Below are positions 5,770-62,923 of a stretch of DNA of 64,000 nt, one piece after another (position 1 is the first letter of the stretch; each line of letters starts with the position of its first letter). A program made the translations under genes and the position numbers. The notes below the pieces were generated by a model. The model was not told the origin of the DNA. It searched no databases and saw nothing but the letters and a program-made list of their open reading frames with translations. Origin of the DNA: a virus. The DNA is taken from positions 1-64,000 of IMG/VR virus record IMGVR_UViG_3300005253_000045; one strand, given 5' to 3'.

Positions 5770-6990
5770 ATGCCAGGTACAACTGAAACCATGCGTTTCG
5801 CTGGTATGCCAGATAGTGGCTACCCCGCAGAGTTCTTGCTTGACGGTTCTACGTCACTGCGAGTTCGCTGGGTGGCACCGCTTCTGGTAAACATGGCCGA
5901 ACGCTCCACGGACCTGCTAAAGTACACCGGTGGTGTCGAGCAGTTCCAGTACACACACGCTCGAATTGAATGGGTTGAGGACGACCCATGGAACCGTCGC
6001 CCAACTATTGGCTCTCGTAGCGCTGCAAGTGTAGCGAACGAAGTCCAAGACCTAACGGTTACGGGTGCCGCACATAGGTTCCCCGTGGGCACTGTGCTCT
6101 TTAACCGCCAGCGAGACGAGTTCGTCCGCGTTACCGGCCATGTCGATGGCGACACGCTGTCCATCATGCGTGACATCACCGGCCGTATCGACGAGACGTC
6201 TGTTGCGTGGGTTGCCACCGACGAAGTGTTTGTCGCCGGCTTCTCCATGCACGAGAACGACAACTGGGTGTTCCGGCCCACCAGCCTGACCACCATGCCG
6301 TACAACTACTCTCAGGTTCACTCTGTGGGCGTCCAGGCGACGTTCCGCATGATTGAGACTCAGCAGTACGGCCTTCAGGGGAACGACCTGGACAAGCAAG
6401 CTGCCGACACCGTAGCGGAGCAGTTCGTTACGATGGAGCAGGAGTTTGTTCATGGTGACCGGTTCGCCGGTACCTCTGCGATTCCTGCTCTAATGGGCGG
6501 TATCTTCGACTTCATCACGGCCGCGAACGGCGCCCAGGTCACTGACCTGTCTGATGCGGCTCTCGTCCGTAGTGACATTGATGACATACTTCAATCCCTC
6601 TTCTACGAGGTAGGTGGTGACAAGATGGCTAAGACCATCGTATGCGCCGCCTGGCCAAAGAGGAAGCTGTCCAGCTTCTTCAGTGGCGCCGAGCGTCTCG
6701 GCCCGGGTACTGGCCAAACGGCTGGTGTCGTGGTTGACCGCTTGAACACTGACTTTGGTGTCTTGGACATTCTTATGCATACGGCGGTGCGTCAGGACGA
6801 ACTGTACCTCCTCCGGCAGGAAAATCACCGGATGGGTCATCACGGAACGCTTGGCCGGCCTCAGCTACGCCAGCTTCCCCCGTCCTCGACTGGCCCTCGT
6901 ATTCAGCAGGCATTCTACGCGGATGTGAGTGCAATCCACTCCGGCCCGCGTGCTGAGGCCCGCATTCATGGAATGAGCACTACGACCTAA
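5770..6990 (+). CDS. Major capsid protein (SU10/DUF5309-like, HK97 fold)
   Basis: Motifs IEWVEDD, YNYSQVHSVGVQAT, MEQEFVHGDR, LMGGIFDFI, TDFGVLDI typical of SU10-type MCPs; 406 aa; follows scaffold. Confidence 0.8.
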   Translation: MPGTTETMRFAGMPDSGYPAEFLLDGSTSLRVRWVAPLLVNMAERSTDLLKYTGGVEQFQYTHARIEWVEDDPWNRRPTIGSRSAASVANEVQDLTVTGAAHRFPVGTVLFNRQRDEFVRVTGHVDGDTLSIMRDITGRIDETSVAWVATDEVFVAGFSMHENDNWVFRPTSLTTMPYNYSQVHSVGVQATFRMIETQQYGLQGNDLDKQAADTVAEQFVTMEQEFVHGDRFAGTSAIPALMGGIFDFITAANGAQVTDLSDAALVRSDIDDILQSLFYEVGGDKMAKTIVCAAWPKRKLSSFFSGAERLGPGTGQTAGVVVDRLNTDFGVLDILMHTAVRQDELYLLRQENHRMGHHGTLGRPQLRQLPPSSTGPRIQQAFYADVSAIHSGPRAEARIHGMSTTT

Positions 6991-50311: not shown

Positions 50312-51732
50312 ACCTCCTCAAACTCGACCTGACTACAAGTGTAGGCCGGCTGACTACTGTACGTTTTCAGTCGCTTCTTAGAGTGTCCCTCCAGGTACTT
50401 CCCTCTATCCATAAAGTCGAAGCAGAAAAGTCTCTCCTTACCCTCTGACAGCCTCATGCCTCTCCCGACTCTCTGAACAGTGAGGTGCGGGGCCTTACCT
50501 CCCCCCGCCATAATCAAGAAGGTTAGGGGCGGTATGTCAAGCCCTTCGTCGGCTATCTTGCTGATTACGAGGAGGTTCAGCTTTCCGGCTCGTACGTCAT
50601 CGTACGCCTGCTGCCGCACTTTGGTTGACTGCTTCCCCGCGATGAATGGGCAGTCCAGCATCTTCGCCAGCTTCGTCCCGTGCTCCAGGCGTTCCACGAG
50701 GATGGCGACGGCGCCGCTCCTACTCTCGTTCAGGCGCCGGGCGAGGTCAACGATGTAGCTGTTGCGTACTGTGTTGCTAATGATACCATATTCGACGGCT
50801 TCCGGCCACTTCTTCCAGCTTATCCGGTTCTTTGGCATTGCTATCATGAAGACATCAACAGCCACTAGATGGCCTTGCTCGGCGAGCTCATCGGCTCCAA
50901 CGTGGTGGATTGTGGGGCCGAGCCAGGAGCAGACTTTGAAGAATGTCTCAAGGTCTTCCTCCTTATACGGGGTCGCGCTGTAGCCGTAGCGCCATTTTGC
51001 AGACCAAAGGTTGGCCATCACCCGCTCGTAGCTCTTGGCGGGGAGGTGATGGGCCTCGTCAACGTGTACCTGCCCTATCTCCTCGCGTAGCCAGGTCTCG
51101 ATGCCCTCTTTCCCCTTGAGGCGGCGGTAGAGGGTCTGGAAAGTGGCGACGGTGAGGACGCGGGGTTCCCACTTGCCGTCACCAATGACGCCTATGACGT
51201 CCTGTTTATCGAAGTCCTCTAGGCCGCGGCCTAAGCCTAGTGTTTTGATAGCACGGTCGGCTGTTTGAGTCATGAGGTCTTTCCGGTGTACCAGTATCAA
51301 CCCCGGCAGACCAATGCGCCGCGCTAGTTCTAAGAGGACTTCCGTTTTGCCTGCCGCCGTTGGGTGCCATACCACGCCCCGCTCTCCCTGTTCCGCCTTT
51401 TCTATGGCCTCCGTCTGGTGTTGGCGGAACACTGTGCTGTTGTGGAGCCCGGCGAGACGGAAGTCCACGGTGGGAGCGGCCGGCCGCTCTTCTACCACCT
51501 CAACGTCGATTCCCTCCGCGTGGAGACGTGCGGCTAGCCAGGGAGTGAGGCCGGCGGCGAATCGGCCGCTCGGCGACATAATTTTTACCCAGCCGTCCCA
51601 GCCCCCGCGCTTGTATGCCCGCGTAAAAATGTATCCCTTCTGTCGATACGACAAGAGGGTACGGGCCTGATAGATATTTGGCCCCTCGAACCGGGCGTGA
51701 GTGTTGGTGACTGTGATGATGTTATGCGCCAC
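50302..51732 (-). CDS. Superfamily 2 DExH helicase (UvsW/D10-like)
   Basis: PTAAGKT, VDEAHH, YSATP, DEGLDIP, QRVGRGMR. Confidence 0.9.
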   Translation of the reverse strand: MAHNIITVTNTHARFEGPNIYQARTLLSYRQKGYIFTRAYKRGGWDGWVKIMSPSGRFAAGLTPWLAARLHAEGIDVEVVEERPAAPTVDFRLAGLHNSTVFRQHQTEAIEKAEQGERGVVWHPTAAGKTEVLLELARRIGLPGLILVHRKDLMTQTADRAIKTLGLGRGLEDFDKQDVIGVIGDGKWEPRVLTVATFQTLYRRLKGKEGIETWLREEIGQVHVDEAHHLPAKSYERVMANLWSAKWRYGYSATPYKEEDLETFFKVCSWLGPTIHHVGADELAEQGHLVAVDVFMIAMPKNRISWKKWPEAVEYGIISNTVRNSYIVDLARRLNESRSGAVAILVERLEHGTKLAKMLDCPFIAGKQSTKVRQQAYDDVRAGKLNLLVISKIADEGLDIPPLTFLIMAGGGKAPHLTVQRVGRGMRLSEGKERLFCFDFMDRGKYLEGHSKKRLKTYSSQPAYTCSQVEFEEVCP

Positions 51733-52865
51733 TACCGCCCGCCTAATCCTATCGCTGCTCTTGTATGGCCCTTCGCTCCAGTGAATCCTTCTGCTGCTGC
51801 GTAGAGTTCTGCTAACGTGTACGCCTTTGTCGCTGTGCCTTCTACTTTATGCTCTGTGAACCAGGCTTGGGCCTCCTCGGTGGTGAGCGGTTTGAACTCT
51901 ACCTCGGCGGCGCAGCGTCCCGGTCTACCCACTGCGGGGTGGAGCTTGCCCAGCGGTTCGTTCGTGGTCACGAGGGCTATGACCCTCATCCCCTGGCCAA
52001 TCATTCCATCGGACAGATTGAGGAATCGGGATAGGGCCTGCCCCTCTCTTTGGCGGGCGTCCTCCGCCAGTAGCTCACCCGCATCCTCTAGTATTAGTAG
52101 CCGCCACTTACCTTGTTCGGCGTTTGGGTGCGGAGAAGCGCGAGGTCTCGTAATGGCCGAGTCTCCGTTGTTCTCGCCCATGACTACACCCATCATGTAG
52201 GCGGCCGAACCGAAGAAAGCCTCAGGGTCAACAATATATTCGGTATTGCACCAGTGTCGCCAGGAGTATGCGAGTGCTCTCAGCGCAAAGGTCTTTCCTG
52301 TCCCTGGAGGGCCATGCCATAGTACAAGCCGCCCTCCGTGCGCGGGTTGAAACTGGGCCATTAGTTCGGTTAGAGGGGCAGCGGCTAGCTGTGAGTAGTT
52401 GCCACTGATGTCTTCCCAGTCAGGGACATCAATACGTCTTGATTGCTCAAGTGCCCCGCTGGGGCCAAGCATCCAGAAGCGAATCTGAATTGTCTTATCG
52501 TCCTTCGGGGTAGCGACTGGAAAGAGCTGTCTAACCTCATTGACGAAGTGTAGATGGGGAGTAGCGGCCAGGTCGGGGAAGGCTGTAACTACTGAAACTC
52601 CCGACCTTTCTACCATCACAAGGCCAATCCCCCCGTCGTCAAGAGTAAGGAATAATGTACCCCTCTGCATGTCCTGGTAGATGACCTTGCCTCTCCCCCC
52701 GTCGAGCTTGATGAGTTTTTCCAGCGGAGACCCAAGGTCGATAGTCCAGTTGGTGGATTGAAGGTAGGGTTTGTTCTGCGCAAGTGCCTCGTTGGTAAAT
52801 AAGTTCCATGGAAGGGCACTTACACTTGTTGAGGCCAGGTCGATTGTTGTGTCAATGGCCTTCAT
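51732..52865 (-). CDS. AAA+ ATPase (DUF5925-like N-terminus)
   Basis: HGPPGTGKT, LILEDAG, LNLSDG, TTN, RPGRC. Confidence 0.85.
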   Translation of the reverse strand: MKAIDTTIDLASTSVSALPWNLFTNEALAQNKPYLQSTNWTIDLGSPLEKLIKLDGGRGKVIYQDMQRGTLFLTLDDGGIGLVMVERSGVSVVTAFPDLAATPHLHFVNEVRQLFPVATPKDDKTIQIRFWMLGPSGALEQSRRIDVPDWEDISGNYSQLAAAPLTELMAQFQPAHGGRLVLWHGPPGTGKTFALRALAYSWRHWCNTEYIVDPEAFFGSAAYMMGVVMGENNGDSAITRPRASPHPNAEQGKWRLLILEDAGELLAEDARQREGQALSRFLNLSDGMIGQGMRVIALVTTNEPLGKLHPAVGRPGRCAAEVEFKPLTTEEAQAWFTEHKVEGTATKAYTLAELYAAAEGFTGAKGHTRAAIGLGGR

Positions 52866-53205: not shown

Positions 53206-53287
53206 TGGTGGAGGTGGCCAGTGTCGAACTGGCGTCCGGCCGGCCGCGCCTTAGCGCGTTATCCAACCGTCGAGCCCTCTCACCCCC
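53206..53287 (-). ncRNA. Mini-tmRNA: tRNA-like domain only (82 nt)
   Basis: GGGGGTG/CACCTCC acceptor stem with G3-U70, A73, CCA; stemless D-loop AGAGGGCTCGAC; helix CGGTTGG/CCGGCCG; GAC; T-arm GCCAG-TTCGACA-CTGGC; TATAAT 5 nt upstream. Confidence 0.75.
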
Positions 53288-57212: not shown

Positions 57213-57617
57213 TACCTCCTATGTCTAGCTCTCGTAGGACTCCGTCCCGCAGTCCCGACAGCGCCACCATGACAGACTGCCGAGAGTCCCTAGCAGTTCT
57301 AGCCTCTGCCCGTTACAAGCTGGACACATGATGCTCGCTCCTCTCTAATTTAACCAAGCGTCCGATTCTAACCGGGCTGCTGTGCGTATCTCCGGGTTGT
57401 CGTGGTACTCAAGGTCGCTAACGGCGATTCTCCAACGTGGCCATAGGTCGGGGTAGCCGTCGCGGTCGAACGCTGCCCGTGCTGCCGTAACTGCGGCTAT
57501 CACCTTGCGAGGGTCGTCACTGTTCTGCGCCCGCGTTAGTGCGCCTTTTGCTTTCCGATATGCCTTGTTTAGTGCGTCATAATCCATTGTCTCTTCCCCT
57601 CTCTCTACTGATAGTGA

Positions 57618-57745
57618 GAGAGGGTCGCCGGTTGGCACTCAACGGCCCCGCGCACGCCACCGCGCCACGGGCATGACTGGTAGGTGCTGCATTGAGCGCG
57701 TGGGTAAGAGCCATGCGCCCTGGCCATCGTACCGGCGACCCTCTC
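57618..57745 (-). ncRNA. Structured leader or small RNA closed by a 15-bp perfect stem
   Basis: GAGAGGGTCGCCGGT / ACCGGCGACCCTCTC; directly downstream of an AT-rich promoter-like element. Confidence 0.45.
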
Positions 57746-57780
57746 CTACTATATATTGTCGGCACTTTTGGGCAAAACTG

Positions 57781-57812
57781 TACCCCCTACGCCGGTTAGG
57801 ACGTAGGGGGTA
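57781..57812 (-). terminator. Hairpin, probable intrinsic terminator
   Basis: 11-bp stem TACCCCCTACG/CGTAGGGGGTA followed by CAGTTTT on the - strand. Confidence 0.5.
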
Positions 57813-59330
57813 GTCCGTTGCTAGGCGTTCGATACTCTTAACGCCAGGTTGAACGCGGGAGCTCCATCGCCCATACCGGCGAACGGGTGAAACGTCCGTG
57901 ACTCTTGGCAGCCCGCATCCTTACAGACGCCCTCAATGTTTCCGCGTGTTAGGCGCTCTGTGTAGAGCTCGCCGTCATACTCGCCGCCGACAATGCGCCG
58001 GCGAGACTGTAGGCAAGGCTCTAATGCCCATCTGTGTACGTGTGTCATGGCTAGTCGCTCTCCTCCTCTTCCTCGTTTAATGCTCTTGCTTCCGCGCTTG
58101 CTTCCACTTGCGTTGTAGCTAAGCAAACCACTTCCCCGTCGCTTGTGTCTACTACTTCCCAACCGTGTTGGCACGGGAAGCCACCTTCAGCTGCGCGTTG
58201 GTAGGTGAATCGCTCCATTCGGCCACGCCTCCTCTCTGTTGTAGTGTATCCGGCCCTAGTATTGGGTACGCTCTATGAGCCGCCGCTAACCAGTGGGCGC
58301 TAGGGCCGGATACGTTAGGCTATACGCTTGACACTCTTAACCGACGTCGGCCGGCCGTTGCGAGAGTCGAAGTGCAGCAGAGTCTTACGCGCTACCGTCT
58401 GTTCGTCTCGCGTGCCGTCTGCATACTTGATTCTGTAGGTAGGCATAGTCTACTCCTCTGTGGGGACTTCCGATGTACTAGCGGTTATTCGTATGCGTGT
58501 TCTGGTAGACCAGGCGCGAACGTGCGGCCACAGCCGCTATCTATTACGCCTTGCAGCACGTCCTTGCCCCCTTGCCCGCATGTTACCGCCTCTGTAACCG
58601 CCTCAATTTCTGTGTTGATAAGGTTACAGTCGGGGCATATCCAGTCATACCCGCTGGCGATTAGGTCAACTCTATCCATCGTCTGCTCCTCTACCTGCTA
58701 GAATGCCGAACCCGTGACGGGTTCGCATTGATAGAGACGTCCGGTAGCCGCAGGGCTAGCATGGTCGCCTCAGTAGGCGGGTACAAACGTTGGCCCTGTT
58801 GCGTGGTCTCGATGGTCATGCACCGCCTCTTCCAGCGCCTCAAGCGCCCTCATGTGGAGAAGCTCTGAGTCGCTGTAGGGTTCGCCGTGGGCGATTGTGC
58901 CCTCGCGGGGGTCTGTAAACTCCGTTTCGTAGTGTCCCCGCCATTCGCAACGCTGGCAAGCGATGACAACGCCAGCCATACCGTCTGACACTACGCGGAA
59001 CGCCGATTCAAACATGATGATACCCGCTAGCACCGTGGGCACTCCATGCTATCAGGCTCTTGGTTTGGTACAAGCCCTAGCCGTAGCTCGCCAGCATATA
59101 CGGCTTGACTGAATCCTGCGTTGGGCGATTGTAGCTCTTCGTTAGAGTATGGCTCGCCGTTGTCGGACGCCCCCATTACATCCTTGAGTGCAGACGTGGT
59201 CAGTACCAGTGCGGCTCGTAGCTGTTCGTTAGTAGCGTTGGGCATGGTCGTTACTCCTATCTGTTGGCGCTAACCCAGCGGCTACCGGATGTCTCTTGAG
59301 ACCAGCGAAACACGGCGCGTTAGCATGCGG

Positions 59331-59555
59331 TTACTTCGACGGGATGCCGCAGTCTGTACAGTTTTCGGGGCAGCAATTCGGGCAGTGGCCGTCGCTGGGT
59401 GTAACATGTCCTGGCTCCTCGGTGCATTCTCCGGCCACACAGCATTGCGGTTCGGTTAGCTGGACGCAGGGTTCGCAGCTACACACGCAGCTATCCTTAC
59501 CCGTGCAGAATGTATAGGCGTCGTTACAGTGATTGATTGTTTCGTCGTGTGACAT
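59331..59555 (-). CDS. Metallothionein-like Cys-rich protein (14 Cys in 74 aa)
   Basis: SD GAGGAG; enclosed by a perfect 29-bp stem. Confidence 0.6.
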   Translation of the reverse strand: MSHDETINHCNDAYTFCTGKDSCVCSCEPCVQLTEPQCCVAGECTEEPGHVTPSDGHCPNCCPENCTDCGIPSK

Positions 59556-60141
59556 TGCGTGTTGCTCCTCTCTATGCTAACGCGCCGTGTTTCGCTGGTC
59601 TCTTGAGGGGACACAGAGAGCGGGGCGTCATAGTTCCCTAGGCTCTCGCTATTAGCCATTCTATACGTGTCCGTGGGCGCTTCCAGCCTATGCCGTGGCA
59701 TGGCCGGTGCATCTTGTCATGGTCACATGTCGAATTGCAGTCAAGGCAGTATAGGACGCCCTCGCCTTCACAGGTAATACATATGAGCCAGTCGGTATCC
59801 TTGTATCGGAACATGGCGCACTTACTTGACCGCGAATCCGGCAACCTTGCGGGCAATTCTAACATGGCCGGACGTCGTAACGCGGTAGAAGCCTTCAGAC
59901 GGTACAGCGTGACCGCCTACGGTTACTTGCTCGCGGGCCGTGTAGTTGAATACTACCGGTACATTGTTTCGCCATTCCCCGATACAGAGTTCGTACGAAT
60001 GGATTGTCCGGCCGTCTGTATGCATGTGTGCGCTAGCGCCGGCCTGACCGTTTGCCCAGGCTTGCGCTACCTGTTGGTTCGTCATTGGCGTGTCTCTCCC
60101 TTCTCCCTCAAAACCCCTTGTCAGTCACTCCATGTATTCGC

Positions 60142-60456
60142 CTAGCCTTTGTACCGTGGGTTCGGCACGGGTACATAGGCCGGCTCTTCCGTCTCGTAGG
60201 CGTCGCTCCCATCCTCATTCCATACGTCGCAGAAGCCTGTATATGCCATCGCATCCGGCCCGCGTAGCTCTGCTGGTATCAGTAGGACTCGAATCGAGTC
60301 ACTGTATCGCTCCAACGCGTTCCGCCCGAATGGGTTATTGTCGGCATCTACTAGCTCAAGGTATCTGGTCAGCGCCTCTTCTACGTTGTGGAAGGCACCA
60401 GACTGCATCATGTAGCCGCTACCTCGCGGGTGTTGGACGTGTGCGTGGTACAGCAT
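60142..60456 (-). CDS. Hypothetical early protein (loop of stem 60105/60508)
   Basis: SD GGGAG; fits exactly between the stem arms. Confidence 0.7.
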   Translation of the reverse strand: MLYHAHVQHPRGSGYMMQSGAFHNVEEALTRYLELVDADNNPFGRNALERYSDSIRVLLIPAELRGPDAMAYTGFCDVWNEDGSDAYETEEPAYVPVPNPRYKG

Positions 60457-60618
60457 AGTCGTTTACTCCCTTCGGTATTGGGGAGTGACTGGCAAGGGGT
60501 TTCGAGAGTGTGCTACCAGATGCCACCTACAAGGGGTTCCGCGTTGCTGTGTGTTGCTATCCTGCCTTCTGTACCGTTTCAAGACGCTCATAACTTGTTC
60601 GGAATCCCTATTGCTCCC

Positions 60619-60753
60619 CTATTCTCTCAGAGCTGCAATATGCTTTATGAAACACACGCTTAAACCTGCATCTTGCACTAATTCTCGTAACCATGCTTCA
60701 CTGTCTGTTTGTTTCATCCGTAGATAAGCATGGATAATCTCGTGAAGATTCAT
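60619..60753 (-). CDS. 44-aa hypothetical early protein (not in ORF track)
   Basis: MNLHEIIHAYLRMKQTDSEAWLRELV...; SD AGGAGG; inside stem 60512/60805. Confidence 0.55.
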   Translation of the reverse strand: MNLHEIIHAYLRMKQTDSEAWLRELVQDAGLSVCFIKHIAALRE

Positions 60754-60851
60754 GTTTGATTTCCTCCTGTTGGGGCGAAACCCCCTGTAGGTGACACCTG
60801 ATAACGGAGCGTTGCCTCAATACCTAGAGTCAGTCACTCCATGTATTCGCC

Positions 60852-61103
60852 CTAGTTGCCTGTTGCGGCCTTGCGTGGCTGGGCCGCTTCCGTTGTCCCT
60901 AGACGCTCTACCGTCCGTATAGCGTCCGCCCTGTCTACACAAGGTATGGTTTGTATCTGCGAGTTAAGCGGCCCAGCGAACCAACCGTATGGAGTGCTCC
61001 ATACCTGGCCGATGATACGCCCTTCACTGTTACGGATACCGTGTGAGCCGCGCTCAACTGGCGCGTCCGCTTGGAATCTCCCTGTCCGGCTATCTTGTGT
61101 CAT
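60852..61103 (-). CDS. Hypothetical early protein (start MTQDSR)
   Basis: SD GGGAG; inside perfect 26-bp stem. Confidence 0.7.
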   Translation of the reverse strand: MTQDSRTGRFQADAPVERGSHGIRNSEGRIIGQVWSTPYGWFAGPLNSQIQTIPCVDRADAIRTVERLGTTEAAQPRKAATGN

Positions 61104-61197
61104 TGTGCGCTCCCTTCCCAATAGTGGGGAGTGACTGACTCTAGGTATTGAGGGTGTGCTACCAGATGCCGCTGACAAGAGGTTCCCGTGCTGCCTA

Positions 61198-61419
61198 TTA
61201 GACGGTTACGTATATATACTTTCGCGTGTCCGTGTGCTTGAAGCCCCACTCTACATGGCCCCGCCACGGCGTTCCGTGCATCAACATGTATTCTTTGGGG
61301 TTGCGGCCGGTGGCTATGAGTGCTTGCCACACGGCATCCCATTGTGGGCTGTCACGTTCTGCGAATATGTAGCCGTTTGGGTTCGAGTCTACCGTGCCGT
61401 CTGGATTGAACGTAGCCAT
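61198..61419 (-). CDS. Hypothetical early protein
   Basis: SD AGGAG; inside 31-bp stem. Confidence 0.7.
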   Translation of the reverse strand: MATFNPDGTVDSNPNGYIFAERDSPQWDAVWQALIATGRNPKEYMLMHGTPWRGHVEWGFKHTDTRKYIYVTV

Positions 61420-61938
61420 GGTACGCGCTCCTATCCCGGAAACCCCTTGTCAGTGACACCTGATAACGGAGCGTTGCCGTGTGGCGAGTCTGACGTCCCG
61501 CTCTCTGTGTCCCTCTCTATTTATTTACCGAGTGAGCCTCACGAGGTTGCTACCCGTTGCCCCTCTGTCCGCCTCTGCTAGTGCGTTGTCCGTGCGTGCT
61601 AGCTGCGCGGGGGCCGTAGTCACCAACCCCTGTCCGGTATGCTCCTGGCCGGCCATACGGGCCGCTATGCCCTGCCGGCCATTGGAGTGCTGTGTCTTGG
61701 CCTATCTCATCAGATACGGGCGGCCATTCCCGTATGACTACCGCCATAGTTTCGACTGTGCTAGGCGTATCTGCTCTTAGCTTCCGTGCTAACACCTAAC
61801 CAACATCGGGTACATACCCATACGATACCGTTGTACCGTTCAATCTTGCTTCCGCACTCCCCGCACGGGCTTTCGGCGTGTCGCCATGCATATACTCGTG
61901 TCATTGTCGCTACTCCTCCTCTCGCCTCTATCATCGGT

Positions 61939-61967
61939 AGTCTATCATAGACCTGAAGGGCTGTCAA
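61939..61967 (-). promoter_or_regulatory. Strong early sigma70 promoter driving the stem-array transcript
   Basis: TTGACA-17-TAGACT; SD GAGGAGGAG before ATG 61904. Confidence 0.75.
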
Positions 61968-62019
61968 GGGTATGGAGCTAATCAAGGCCAGGGGCAACTG
62001 CGGCTAATGGCGAGTGCCT

Positions 62020-62290
62020 CACTCTAGGTATCAGGGGTATGGGCGGGCTAACCAGGTGTGAGGGACAATGGGTTGTCAGTGACTCGGGGTGCTGGGTGCG
62101 CTAACCAGGTGTCAGTGACTCGGGGTGCTGGGCAGGCATGCGACATCATCTCGCATGATACATCATCCGCACGATACATGTCTAGTCGCGCCATACATCA
62201 TTCGCGCCCGCGCAGGGTCGTCCGTGCTGGTACGGGGGCGTTATGGTGTGTTATGGGAAGGGTGACGTTATGGTGTGGGTGTTGGGAGTG
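62020..62290. repeat. Non-coding short direct-repeat patch
   Basis: TGTCAGTGACTCGGGGTGCTGGG x2, GCTAACCAGGTGT x2, ATACATCAT x2, GTTATGGTGTG x2. Confidence 0.7.
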
Positions 62291-62923
62291 ATAGGTTAGA
62301 CCCCACACACTCTACGCTGAAAATTGGAGAGAAATTGAGAAAACCTGCCGCCACAGGCTGGTTTCACATAGGGGGTGTCGTAAGGAACAGGGCATCACCT
62401 CCTTCGTTTAACGGGTGTAGCCTACTCGTGCTTTACTTGACTTTGGCCCGCTCATTGTGGTGTCGCGCCTCTTCCTCCGCAGCGTCGAGGTCCCAGAGCA
62501 CCCTCCGTACCATGTTGCCGAAGTCGAACTTCCAGCCGGCGCCGCTTTTCGGCAGCAAATTGGCCACCCGTTGCAATTCGGCCCGGTCGATGGCTGTTGT
62601 CATTGACATTTCGCGCCTCCTGCCTCCATTATAGCGCATTTTCGCGTGCTACGCCGGTCCACCCGGTCGAAACAGGCCGCCAGAACCGCTTTCGGCGGCT
62701 TCAGAGTGCCTATCGCGCCACTAATACCTGCCCGAGGGGGATTTCTGGTACTCTGATGTCATTCTCCACCGGTTTAGCCGGCGACGCGGCGTTTCATCGT
62801 ATGAGCCGGGGTGTTCGAGTGAGTGACACCCGATAAATGTTATGGCTGGTGCGCAAAAAAAGAAACGACCGCCACGGATTACGAGAATATACGCGCAATC
62901 GCGTAGGCTAGGGGATTATTCGC

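What the first reader, a model, noticed from the sequence alone, without database searches (positions are those of the whole stretch)
58733..61513. 'Gene-in-a-loop' architecture: seven long-range RNA stems each loop out early genes
Seen in sequence: on the transcript from the 61967 promoter, small early genes are enclosed by paired arms. These are 31 bp (61437-61467/61158-61188, gene 61198-61419), 26 bp perfect (61128-61153/60815-60840, gene 60852-61103), 31 bp (60775-60805/60512-60542, gene 60619-60753), 27 bp (60482-60508/60105-60131, gene 60142-60456), 29 bp perfect (59574-59602/59298-59326, gene 59331-59555) and 28 bp (59269-59296/58733-58760, two genes). A 23-bp stem (61491-61513/59608-59630) encloses the first four. 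Consecutive stems are separated by only 1-9 nt. In the two 31-bp stems, 12 of 13 arm differences are G-U wobbles on the - (mRNA) strand and would be A-C mismatches on the other, which indicates selection on single-stranded sense-strand structure rather than on DNA repeats. SD and start codons lie in the loops. Established: RNase III excises 16S/23S rRNA from such long-range stems and cuts T7 early mRNA at local hairpins. Inference: a programmed system that dices the early polycistron into end-protected (possibly circularised) monocistronic mRNAs. I do not know this nested form in phages.
Basis: partly seen in the sequence, partly recalled or inferred. Interest (0 to 1): 0.92.

Follow-up and report, generated by a model that had tools for sequence, protein, structure and literature searches.

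The report
Phage early genes enclosed in RNA stems
In the first operon of an uncultured marine-sediment phage, each small gene (or gene pair) sits inside its own 23-31 base-pair RNA helix, as ribosomal RNAs do, and a self-cleaving hammerhead ribozyme precedes the array, so the long early transcript is probably cut into separate messages with clamped ends.

Summary
All seven inverted-repeat pairs lie at the stated coordinates. They are the only long inverted repeats in the 75.6-kb genome: 9 stems with at least 20 Watson-Crick pairs, against 0.03 per shuffle. All seven appear in the minimum-energy fold and have mean pair probabilities of 0.92-1.0.

The mRNA strand is the selected one. G-U versus A-C mismatches run 16:5 here and 17:5 in a syntenic relative (L005), which has its own sense-strand-only long stems, one of them enclosing a gene. 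Paralogous stems carry 9 compensatory double changes.

- a type II hammerhead ribozyme (61696-61757, 39 bits, above Rfam's threshold) 3 nt after the first early gene;
- an eighth stem and a terminator-like hairpin that ends the operon;
- a degenerate arm module upstream of the promoter.

The cargo is exchangeable. Gene 4 occurs in three otherwise unrelated phage contigs without stems, and gene 3 has foreign base composition.

The phage encodes no recognisable RNase III, RNA ligase, RtcB or recombinase.

Best reading (0.58): rRNA-style processing stalks cut by host RNase III, plus ribozyme cutting. Circularisation is unsupported. No RNA data exist, and I found no paper describing this layout. 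Earlier unchecked notes of this scan report it in several other uncultured phages.

The parts
61939..61967 (-). Sigma-70-type early promoter (TTGACA, 17 nt, TG-n-TAGACT); inferred start near 61932
   Evidence: 10 of 12 consensus matches; sequence
61761..61904 (-). g0, the first early ORF (47 aa, two CxxC pairs), with SD GGAGG upstream; it lies outside the stems
   Evidence: frame of ORF 61761-61997, internal ATG at 61904
61696..61757 (-). Type II hammerhead ribozyme, starting 3 nt after the g0 stop codon; predicted cleavage between C61736 and A61735
   Evidence: Rfam RF02276, 39 bits against gathering score 37, E 3.9e-05 to 2e-04. Full core: CUGAUGA, GAAA, GUC. Loop I UGGCC can pair with the 3' tail GGCCA (read from the alignment)
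61491..61517 (-). S7 5' arm (outer stem enclosing S1-S4 plus g5 and g6)
   Evidence: mean pair probability 0.95
59605..59630 (-). S7 3' arm
61158..61467 (-). Cassette 1: S1 arms 61467-61437 and 61188-61158 (31 bp) around g1, 61198-61419 (73 aa)
   Evidence: (dG -49.2 on the - strand, -30.4 on the + strand)
60815..61153 (-). Cassette 2: S2 arms 61153-61128 and 60840-60815 (26 bp, perfect) around g2, 60852-61103 (83 aa)
60512..60805 (-). Cassette 3: S3 arms 60805-60775 and 60542-60512 (31 bp, 6 G-U) around g3, 60619-60753 (44 aa, GC 0.39 against 0.566 for the genome)
60105..60508 (-). Cassette 4: S4 arms 60508-60482 and 60131-60105 (27 bp) around g4, 60142-60456 (104 aa; homologs in other phages)
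59638..60085 (-). g5 (59822-60085, 87 aa) and g6 (within 59638-59865, Cys-rich). They lie inside S7 but have no stem of their own
59298..59602 (-). Cassette 5: S5 arms 59602-59574 and 59326-59298 (29 bp, perfect) around g7, 59331-59555 (74 aa, Cys-rich)
58733..59296 (-). Cassette 6: S6 arms 59296-59269 and 58760-58733 (28 bp) around g8 (59027-59245) and g9 (58770-59042)
62001..62126 (-). Degenerate third copy of the junction module (3'-arm-like element, twice, then a 5'-arm-like element), just upstream of the -35 box; a probable vestige of array growth
   Evidence: (D1, D5, I13, I14)
57780..57812 (-). Terminator-like hairpin (12-bp G+C-rich stem followed by UACAGUUUUG), the probable end of the early operon
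   Evidence: z -3.4; sequence
57611..57752 (-). S8: a 22-bp stem (20 WC) closing a structured 98-nt non-coding insert. It lies beyond the terminator and overlaps a weak promoter match
   Evidence: z -5.7

Best explanation
The arms work as RNA, not as DNA. On the early transcript made by host RNA polymerase from the 61967 promoter, a type II hammerhead cuts itself right after the first gene. The downstream RNA is left with a 5'-hydroxyl end inside a hairpin. Each later translation unit (g1, g2, g3, g4, g7, g8-g9) is then enclosed by a 26-31 bp helix formed between the sequence just before its ribosome-binding site and the sequence just after its stop codon. An outer 23-27 bp helix (S7) closes the first four cassettes plus g5-g6. 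By analogy with the leader-trailer stalks around 16S and 23S rRNA, host RNase III is inferred to make staggered double cuts in each helix. That would release single-gene or two-gene messages whose 5' and 3' ends stay clamped in a half-helix and are shielded from end-dependent decay. The helices also act as standard sockets: they insulate whatever small gene is inserted, which would explain conserved, covarying flanks around unrelated and partly foreign cargo. Shown here: the helices, their sense-strand bias, their covariation, the ribozyme match, and the exchangeability of the cargo. Inferred: cleavage by RNase III, stabilisation, and the socket function.
For: The stems are real and unique to this region. 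All are in the minimum-energy fold and have mean pair probabilities of 0.92-1.0. Sense-strand bias: S1 has dG -49.2 against -30.4 and S3 has -56.0 against -33.7. In a strand-symmetric scan G-U:A-C is 16:5 here and 17:5 in the syntenic relative L005. L005 has four stems of 26-32 bp that pass the G-U-tolerant scan on the sense strand only. One (2613-2639/2874-2900) encloses a 68-aa ORF with its SD, and two are intergenic hairpins with loops of about 44 nt. Paralogous stems show 9 compensatory double changes and 4 pair-keeping single changes against 2 positions that involve a non-pair. Arms never overlap coding sequence, and SD and AUG lie 3-13 nt inside each loop. Every helix is at least 22 bp long, the length at which RNase III makes a double cut leaving 2-nt overhangs (PMC6212723). 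rRNA stalks are the precedent for long-range helices (PMC6582327). The hammerhead in the same transcript scores above Rfam's threshold. Clustered hammerheads that flank single genes in prophage polycistrons are already known to cleave (PMC3088659). Cargo is exchangeable: g4 is 67-75% identical to genes in three otherwise unrelated viral contigs, the homology ends at the ORF, and there are no stems there. g3 has GC 0.39 against 0.566. A low-depth variant contig joins the S5 and S7 arms to different flanks.
Against: There are no RNA data at all, and the host, and so its RNase III, is unknown. No RNase III sequence signature was tested. In this genome the strand bias comes mostly from one paralogous pair (S1/S3), which shares 5 of its 6 G-U positions. 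S2 and S5 are perfect and so say nothing about strand, and S7 is slightly more stable on the + strand. The closest relative with DNA in hand (G001, loci L004/L063) shows no such stems, so the feature is not conserved across the group. Stop codons lie only 4-11 nt from most 3' arms, so terminating ribosomes would open the inner pairs. Full double cuts in perfect duplexes could destabilise the messages rather than protect them.
Confidence: 0.58

Rival explanations
1. The helices form but are not cut. They act as structural clamps: barriers to exonucleases and RNase E scanning, insulators that keep each ribosome-binding site in a constant context, or closed loops that bring the stop codon next to the start for ribosome re-initiation.
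For: This rests on the same structural evidence as the main model. SD and AUG and the stop codon both sit within a few nt of the base of the helix. 5'-3' UTR pairing around an ORF is known in bacteria (icaR, PMC3868564).
Against: Perfect or near-perfect duplexes of 26-31 bp are generic RNase III substrates, and nearly all bacteria have the enzyme. The phage shows no recognisable dsRNA-binding protein that could shield them. The hammerhead shows that this transcript is cut in at least one place.
Confidence: 0.2
2. The arms are primarily DNA-level repeats: recombination scaffolds that shuffle early-gene cassettes (as PeSL motifs do in T4-type phages), or sites for DNA inversion or excision. Any RNA pairing is a by-product.
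For: The flanks are duplicated as a two-cassette scaffold with unrelated cargo. A vestigial module lies upstream of the promoter. A variant contig has different flanks next to the same arms. g4 is laterally mobile, and in L069 it is flanked by direct repeats of about 40 bp. PeSL precedent: PMC2839356, PMC4122927.
Against: The G-U over A-C bias on the sense strand, here and in L005, is not expected for DNA repeats. The arms are inverted, not direct, so recombination between them would invert a gene against its promoter rather than exchange it. The genome has no serine or tyrosine recombinase. Contigs from two runs cross the whole region colinearly with no joints. Compensatory changes keep each pair matched while the paralogs diverge. 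A role in shuffling may coexist with the RNA role.
Confidence: 0.1
3. RNase III or ribozyme ends are ligated to give circular monocistronic mRNAs.
For: The helices hold the 5' and 3' ends of each unit together. A hammerhead produces 5'-OH and 2',3'-cyclic phosphate ends of the kind RtcB joins.
Against: There is only one ribozyme, so no unit has ribozyme ends on both sides. No RtcB or RNA ligase was detected in the phage. RNase III leaves staggered 5'-phosphate/3'-OH ends, not a nick. Perreault et al. looked for circular products from clustered prophage hammerheads and found none (PMC3088659).
Confidence: 0.04
4. The arms are terminal inverted repeats of miniature transposable elements that happen to carry small genes.
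For: Short inverted repeats flank small units, and the arm families are repeated.
Against: Neighbouring units abut with 1-9 nt between them and no target-site duplications. No transposase or recombinase was found. No copies occur elsewhere in the genome or in IMG/VR. There is a sense-strand G-U bias.
Confidence: 0.03

Closest known systems
Leader-trailer processing stalks around 16S and 23S rRNA in bacterial rrn operons (cut by RNase III; PMC6582327, PMC8708148)
   Same: Long-range helices form between the sequences flanking each functional unit of one long transcript. Stalks lie back to back, and each helix is longer than two turns.
   Different: Here the enclosed units are translated mRNAs, 44-104 codons long, with their ribosome-binding sites. 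There are seven or eight of them, one nested around four others, in a phage. No boxA was found, and cleavage is not shown.
RNase III sites of the phage T7 early transcript (R0.3-R1.3; PMC4858673 and references in it)
   Same: A phage early polycistron made by host polymerase is separated into individual messages at double-stranded elements between genes, and the products are stabilised by the remaining structure.
   Different: T7 sites are local hairpins with internal loops that favour single-strand cuts. Here the two strands of each helix lie 232-1860 nt apart, enclose the gene, and are nearly uninterrupted. The relative L005 has both kinds.
Clustered hammerhead ribozymes flanking single genes in prophage transcripts (Perreault et al. 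2011, PMC3088659)
   Same: A hammerhead sits between genes of a phage polycistron, and the logic of cutting the transcript into gene-length messages is the same. This one is a type II hammerhead with a loop I/tail pseudoknot.
   Different: There is only one ribozyme here. The other gene boundaries use long duplexes instead.
PeSL mobile regulatory cassettes of T4-type phages (PMC2839356, PMC4122927)
   Same: Repeated intergenic modules flank small, variable, often orphan early genes, and the flanks stay conserved while the cargo is swapped.
   Different: PeSLs are direct repeats that carry a promoter plus a local stem-loop, and they act through DNA recombination. Here the repeats are inverted pairs with an RNA-strand bias and no promoter in each unit.
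5'-3' UTR pairing of icaR mRNA in Staphylococcus aureus (PMC3868564)
   Same: Long-range pairing between the two ends of one bacterial mRNA encloses the ORF, and the duplex is an RNase III target.
   Different: In icaR the pairing hides the SD and represses a single gene. Here the SD stays in the loop and the design is repeated as an array.

Membership tests
RNase III long-range processing stalk (rRNA type) | Complementary sequences flank the unit and form a helix of about two turns or more on the transcribed strand | tested here: met
   Seven helices of 23-31 bp, dG -46 to -59 kcal/mol, pair probability 0.92-1.0
RNase III long-range processing stalk (rRNA type) | Selection acts on RNA pairing (G-U tolerated on the sense strand, compensatory changes) | tested here: met
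   G-U:A-C is 16:5 here and 17:5 in L005; 9 compensatory double changes between paralogous stems
RNase III long-range processing stalk (rRNA type) | Staggered double cleavage by RNase III leaving 2-nt 3' overhangs | not testable with these tools
   No RNA run holds the sequence; the host is unknown
RNase III long-range processing stalk (rRNA type) | An RNase III enzyme is available | tested here: inconclusive
   None is encoded by the phage (PF00636 and PF00035 absent). It would have to come from the host, which is unidentified
T7-type local RNase III hairpin | Local hairpin with an internal loop between genes | tested here: not met
   The arms lie 232-1860 nt apart and enclose genes; S2, S3 and S5 have no mismatch
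Hammerhead ribozyme, type II (RF02276) | Score above the Rfam gathering threshold | tested here: met
   39 bits against 37 in three searches
Hammerhead ribozyme, type II (RF02276) | Conserved core (CUGAUGA, GAAA, cleavage triplet GUC), closed stems I and III, open stem II | tested here: met
   Alignment: 5-bp stem III with a tetraloop, 7-bp stem I, all core bases present
Hammerhead ribozyme, type II (RF02276) | Tertiary pseudoknot between loop I and the 3' tail | tested here: met
   Loop I UGGCC is complementary to GGCCA in the tail, read from the alignment; this is inspection only
Hammerhead ribozyme, type II (RF02276) | Self-cleavage | not testable with these tools
   Needs an in vitro transcription assay
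PeSL-type mobile regulatory cassette | Direct repeats with an early promoter plus a local stem-loop on each side of the ORF | tested here: not met
   The repeats around each gene are inverted; only one promoter match heads the array
Invertible DNA segment (Hin/Gin/shufflon type) or integron cassette | A cognate serine or tyrosine recombinase | tested here: not met
   PF00239 and PF00589 are absent from the complete genome
Invertible DNA segment (Hin/Gin/shufflon type) or integron cassette | Both orientations, or excised forms, present in the DNA | tested here: inconclusive
   Contigs of two runs are colinear with no joints. A third run's contigs break at the perfect S5 arms, as expected from a de Bruijn graph. 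Contigs drop rare variants

The most novel reading that the evidence does not exclude
The helices, with the ribozyme, form a phage-borne 'plug-in socket' for early genes that does more than allow RNase III cutting. Each message becomes an end-clamped, quasi-circular particle that translates in a closed loop and is invisible to the host's end-dependent RNA decay or RNA-targeting defences. The standard flanks also let the phage capture and express foreign genes at once. Together with the similar arrays that this scan noted in other uncultured phages, this would be a widespread, undescribed principle of phage mRNA organisation.
Probability: 0.2. Interest if true: 0.85.

Novelty: new variant of a known kind. 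Interest (0 to 1): 0.72.

Why it matters
If the helices are cut or act as clamps, this operon is a natural counterpart of what synthetic biologists build with RiboJ-type ribozymes and RNase III or Csy4 sites: a polycistron split into insulated, individually stabilised messages. It would carry the rRNA processing-stalk principle over to protein-coding genes, and show a ribozyme and duplexes working side by side in one transcript. It would also offer a mechanism by which phages can swap orphan early genes without retuning their expression. The question is directly testable, because the 3.3-kb region can be synthesised and expressed in rnc+ and rnc- laboratory hosts. My literature searches found no description of gene-enclosing stem arrays in phages.

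Tried and rejected
- Relatives by DNA: no blastn match in INPHARED. Exact arm motifs found nothing or only chance hits in IMG/VR. A 15-mer from the hammerhead gave 37 chance hits and no related ribozyme.
- Relatives by protein: the single-protein helicase scan gave only remote hits. The AAA/DUF5925 alignment gave 19 loci, of which only L004 and L005 are syntenic. The metagenome scan with A2 gave two short contigs without the early region. The genome-contig scan with P0002 gave nothing.
- The hammerhead is absent from five related or neighbouring records.
- RNA evidence: no RNA holder is listed for this sequence. The only holders are three DNA runs from one marine-sediment study, and these may be the source of the assembly.
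- No boxA-like antitermination signal was found in the leader.
- The early proteins have no Pfam or PHROG family.
- The 175-nt segment between the ribozyme and S7 does not fold better than shuffled sequence (z -1.4).
- A predicted ninth helix, 61628-61594/57665-57630 (dG -59), is not a clear outlier: the next best partner in the genome gives -54.5. Its 3' arm also lies beyond the terminator-like hairpin, so I rated it inconclusive.
- The weak long helices in the L004 fold are chance-level.


Full report
**Source and context.** The window is the first 64 kb of a 75,628-bp single-contig virus record with a 122-bp terminal overlap, which indicates a circular assembly. Three DNA runs from one marine-sediment metagenome study hold it. 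It has no nucleotide relatives in INPHARED, and its capsid protein is only 25-28% identical to any deposited phage. Genes on the - strand run from about 62 kb down to 24 kb and cover the early and replication functions. Structural genes are on the + strand.

- S2 (26 bp) and S5 (29 bp) are perfect.
- S1 and S3 (31 bp each) carry 12 G-U pairs and one A-C between them.
- Gaps between neighbouring stems are 1-9 nt.
- Each loop holds a Shine-Dalgarno sequence, a start codon and a stop codon.

**The stems are far beyond chance.**
- A genome-wide scan puts every inverted repeat of at least 18 bp (within 3 kb) between 57.6 and 62.0 kb.
- With G-U allowed, the - strand has 9 stems with at least 20 Watson-Crick pairs, against a mean of 0.03 in 30 dinucleotide shuffles.
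- 656 kb of unrelated viral loci contain only 2 distinct stems of that kind.
- The minimum-energy fold of the 4561-nt - strand RNA contains all seven.
- In the Boltzmann ensemble of the 3046-nt RNA their mean pair probabilities are 0.92-1.0.

**RNA or DNA?** Three lines of evidence point to selection on the sense-strand RNA.
- S1 and S3 are 19-22 kcal/mol more stable on the - strand than on the + strand. They pass the G-U-tolerant scan as full 31-bp stems on that strand only.
- In a scan that penalises G-U and A-C equally, transition mismatches are 16 G-U to 5 A-C on the sense strand. S1 and S3 share five of these G-U positions, so roughly 11:5 are independent events.
- The syntenic relative L005 (IMG/VR 3300037247_000784; AAA protein 46% and helicase 62% identical) has its own, unrelated long stems with 17 G-U to 5 A-C. 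The stems of 26-32 bp pass on its sense strand only.

One L005 stem (2613-2639/2874-2900) encloses a 68-aa ORF with its SD. Two others are intergenic hairpins with loops of about 44 nt, and a fourth (loop 92 nt) lies in the regulatory region before the early genes. In that phage, local T7-like elements and a gene-in-loop element therefore coexist.

Within this genome, the paralogous stems S1/S3 and S2/S4 differ by 9 compensatory double changes and 4 pair-keeping single changes. Only 2 positions involve a non-pair.

The DNA-level rivals found no support. The genome has no serine or tyrosine recombinase. Contigs from two runs cross the region colinearly without joints. The third run's contigs break exactly at the perfect S5 arms, as a de Bruijn graph would.

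1. Rfam finds a type II hammerhead ribozyme at 61696-61757 on the - strand. It scores 39 bits against a gathering score of 37.
   - It has the complete core, a 5-bp stem III, a 7-bp stem I, and a loop I sequence complementary to the 3' tail.
   - It begins 3 nt after the stop codon of the first early ORF, g0 (61761-61904). The predicted cut is between C61736 and A61735.
   - Other low-depth contigs in the same samples carry a similar stem I and core with a different stem III.
   - Clustered hammerheads that flank single genes in prophage polycistrons, and that cleave in vitro, are on record (PMC3088659).
2. An eighth stem, 57752-57731/57632-57611, closes a structured 98-nt non-coding insert.
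3. A terminator-like hairpin at 57812-57780 probably ends the early operon.
4. A degenerate third copy of the junction module lies at 62001-62126, just upstream of the -35 box. This points to array growth by duplication.

**The cargo is exchangeable.**
- None of the enclosed proteins matches a Pfam or PHROG family.
- g4 has homologs at 67-75% identity in three IMG/VR contigs that share essentially nothing else with this phage. The nucleotide homology stops at the ORF ends, and those copies have no flanking stems.
- In one of those contigs (L069) the g4 homolog sits between direct repeats of about 40 bp, as in T4-type PeSL cassettes (PMC2839356).
- g3 has 39% GC in a 56.6% GC genome.
- A low-depth variant contig joins the S5 and S7 arms to different flanks and apparently lacks g6.
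- The helices therefore belong to this phage lineage's scaffold, not to the genes they enclose.

**Mechanism.**
- *Shown here:* seven very stable, sense-biased, covarying helices that leave each ribosome-binding site in a loop, and a bona fide hammerhead match upstream.
- *From established knowledge:* bacterial RNase III makes staggered double cuts in duplexes of about two helical turns (PMC6212723). It releases 16S and 23S rRNA from long-range stalks (PMC6582327). It also separates and stabilises T7 early messages (PMC4858673).
- *Inferred:* host RNase III cuts each helix and releases g1, g2, g3, g4, g5-g6, g7 and g8-g9 as separate messages whose ends stay clamped. The ribozyme separates g0 and gives the downstream RNA a 5'-OH end.
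- The phage itself encodes no recognisable RNase III, dsRNA-binding domain, RtcB or RNA ligase. Cutting would therefore depend on the host, and circularisation has no support.
- I put this model at 0.58. Uncut structural clamps or insulators get 0.20, a mainly DNA-level role 0.10, and the rest is shared among the minor rivals.

**Caveats.**
- There are no RNA data and the host is unknown.
- The closest relative with DNA in hand (G001, loci L004/L063) lacks such stems.

**Novelty.** My literature searches found no description of arrays of gene-enclosing stems in phages. Earlier notes of this scan report the same layout in several other uncultured phages. Those notes are unchecked leads, not evidence, but they suggest a recurrent design. 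I class this as a new variant of a known kind: the RNase III processing-stalk logic applied to phage mRNAs, here combined with a ribozyme.

Noticed in passing
window 53206-53287 (-): Rfam tmRNA (RF00023) match of 53 bits, above the gathering score of 47, covering only about 80 nt. This fits the tRNA-like-domain-only 'mini-tmRNA' noted by another reader.
   Followed up: partly
window 61594-61628 and 57630-57665 (-): The minimum-energy fold predicts a helix of about 31 pairs (dG -59) spanning 4 kb. Its 3' arm lies inside the S8 loop and beyond the terminator-like hairpin. The next-best partner in the genome gives -54.5, so this may be chance.
   Followed up: partly
window 58245-58313 (-): A perfect 14-bp hairpin with a loop of about 40 nt lies between g11 and g12 (z -4.3). 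It is a local counterpart of the long stems and resembles the intergenic hairpins of L005.
   Followed up: partly
window 62130-62300: Upstream of the early promoter there are tandem imperfect repeats (22 nt at 62229/62256, 20 nt at 62151/62186) and a second promoter-like site at 62184-62155 (-). In run X3 the contig depth rises from about 265 to about 640 at 62130, and contigs end there in Nextera adapter sequence. This could be an origin, a regulatory region or a genome end.
   Followed up: no
window 59578-59631 (run X3, record 8): A low-depth (2.4x) variant contig carries the S5 5' arm/S7 3' arm junction with 3 differences. It is flanked by a different start region on one side and, on the other, directly by a g5-like gene end, so g6 appears to be absent in that strain.
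   Followed up: partly
L005 2001, 2074, 2146, 14448 (+) and 14525 (-): The relative carries five copies of the 13-mer CACAATGGGTTGT. Three are clustered in the regulatory region before its early genes, and two form a 24-bp palindromic hairpin. It is probably an operator or a phage-specific promoter motif.
   Followed up: no
L069 about 5945-5990 and 6350-6395: In an unrelated viral contig the g4 homolog is flanked by direct repeats of about 40 bp that end in the SD. This is a PeSL-like arrangement around the same cargo gene.
   Followed up: partly
window 60619-60753 (-): g3 (44 aa) has GC 0.39 and GC3 0.33 in a genome of GC 0.566. A 76-nt untranslated spacer lies before its 3' arm. It looks like a recent foreign insertion into an existing socket.
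   Followed up: partly
window 51732-52865 (-): A DUF5925 + AAA ATPase gene has nearly 2000 homologs in the large protein collection. Most appear to be cellular, and only a few are on phage-like contigs.
   Followed up: partly
window 61655-61672 (-): A near-copy of hammerhead stem I (GGGCAUAGCGGCCCGUAU) lies 60 nt downstream of the ribozyme, without a catalytic core. It could be a remnant of a second ribozyme or a competing pairing partner.
   Followed up: no
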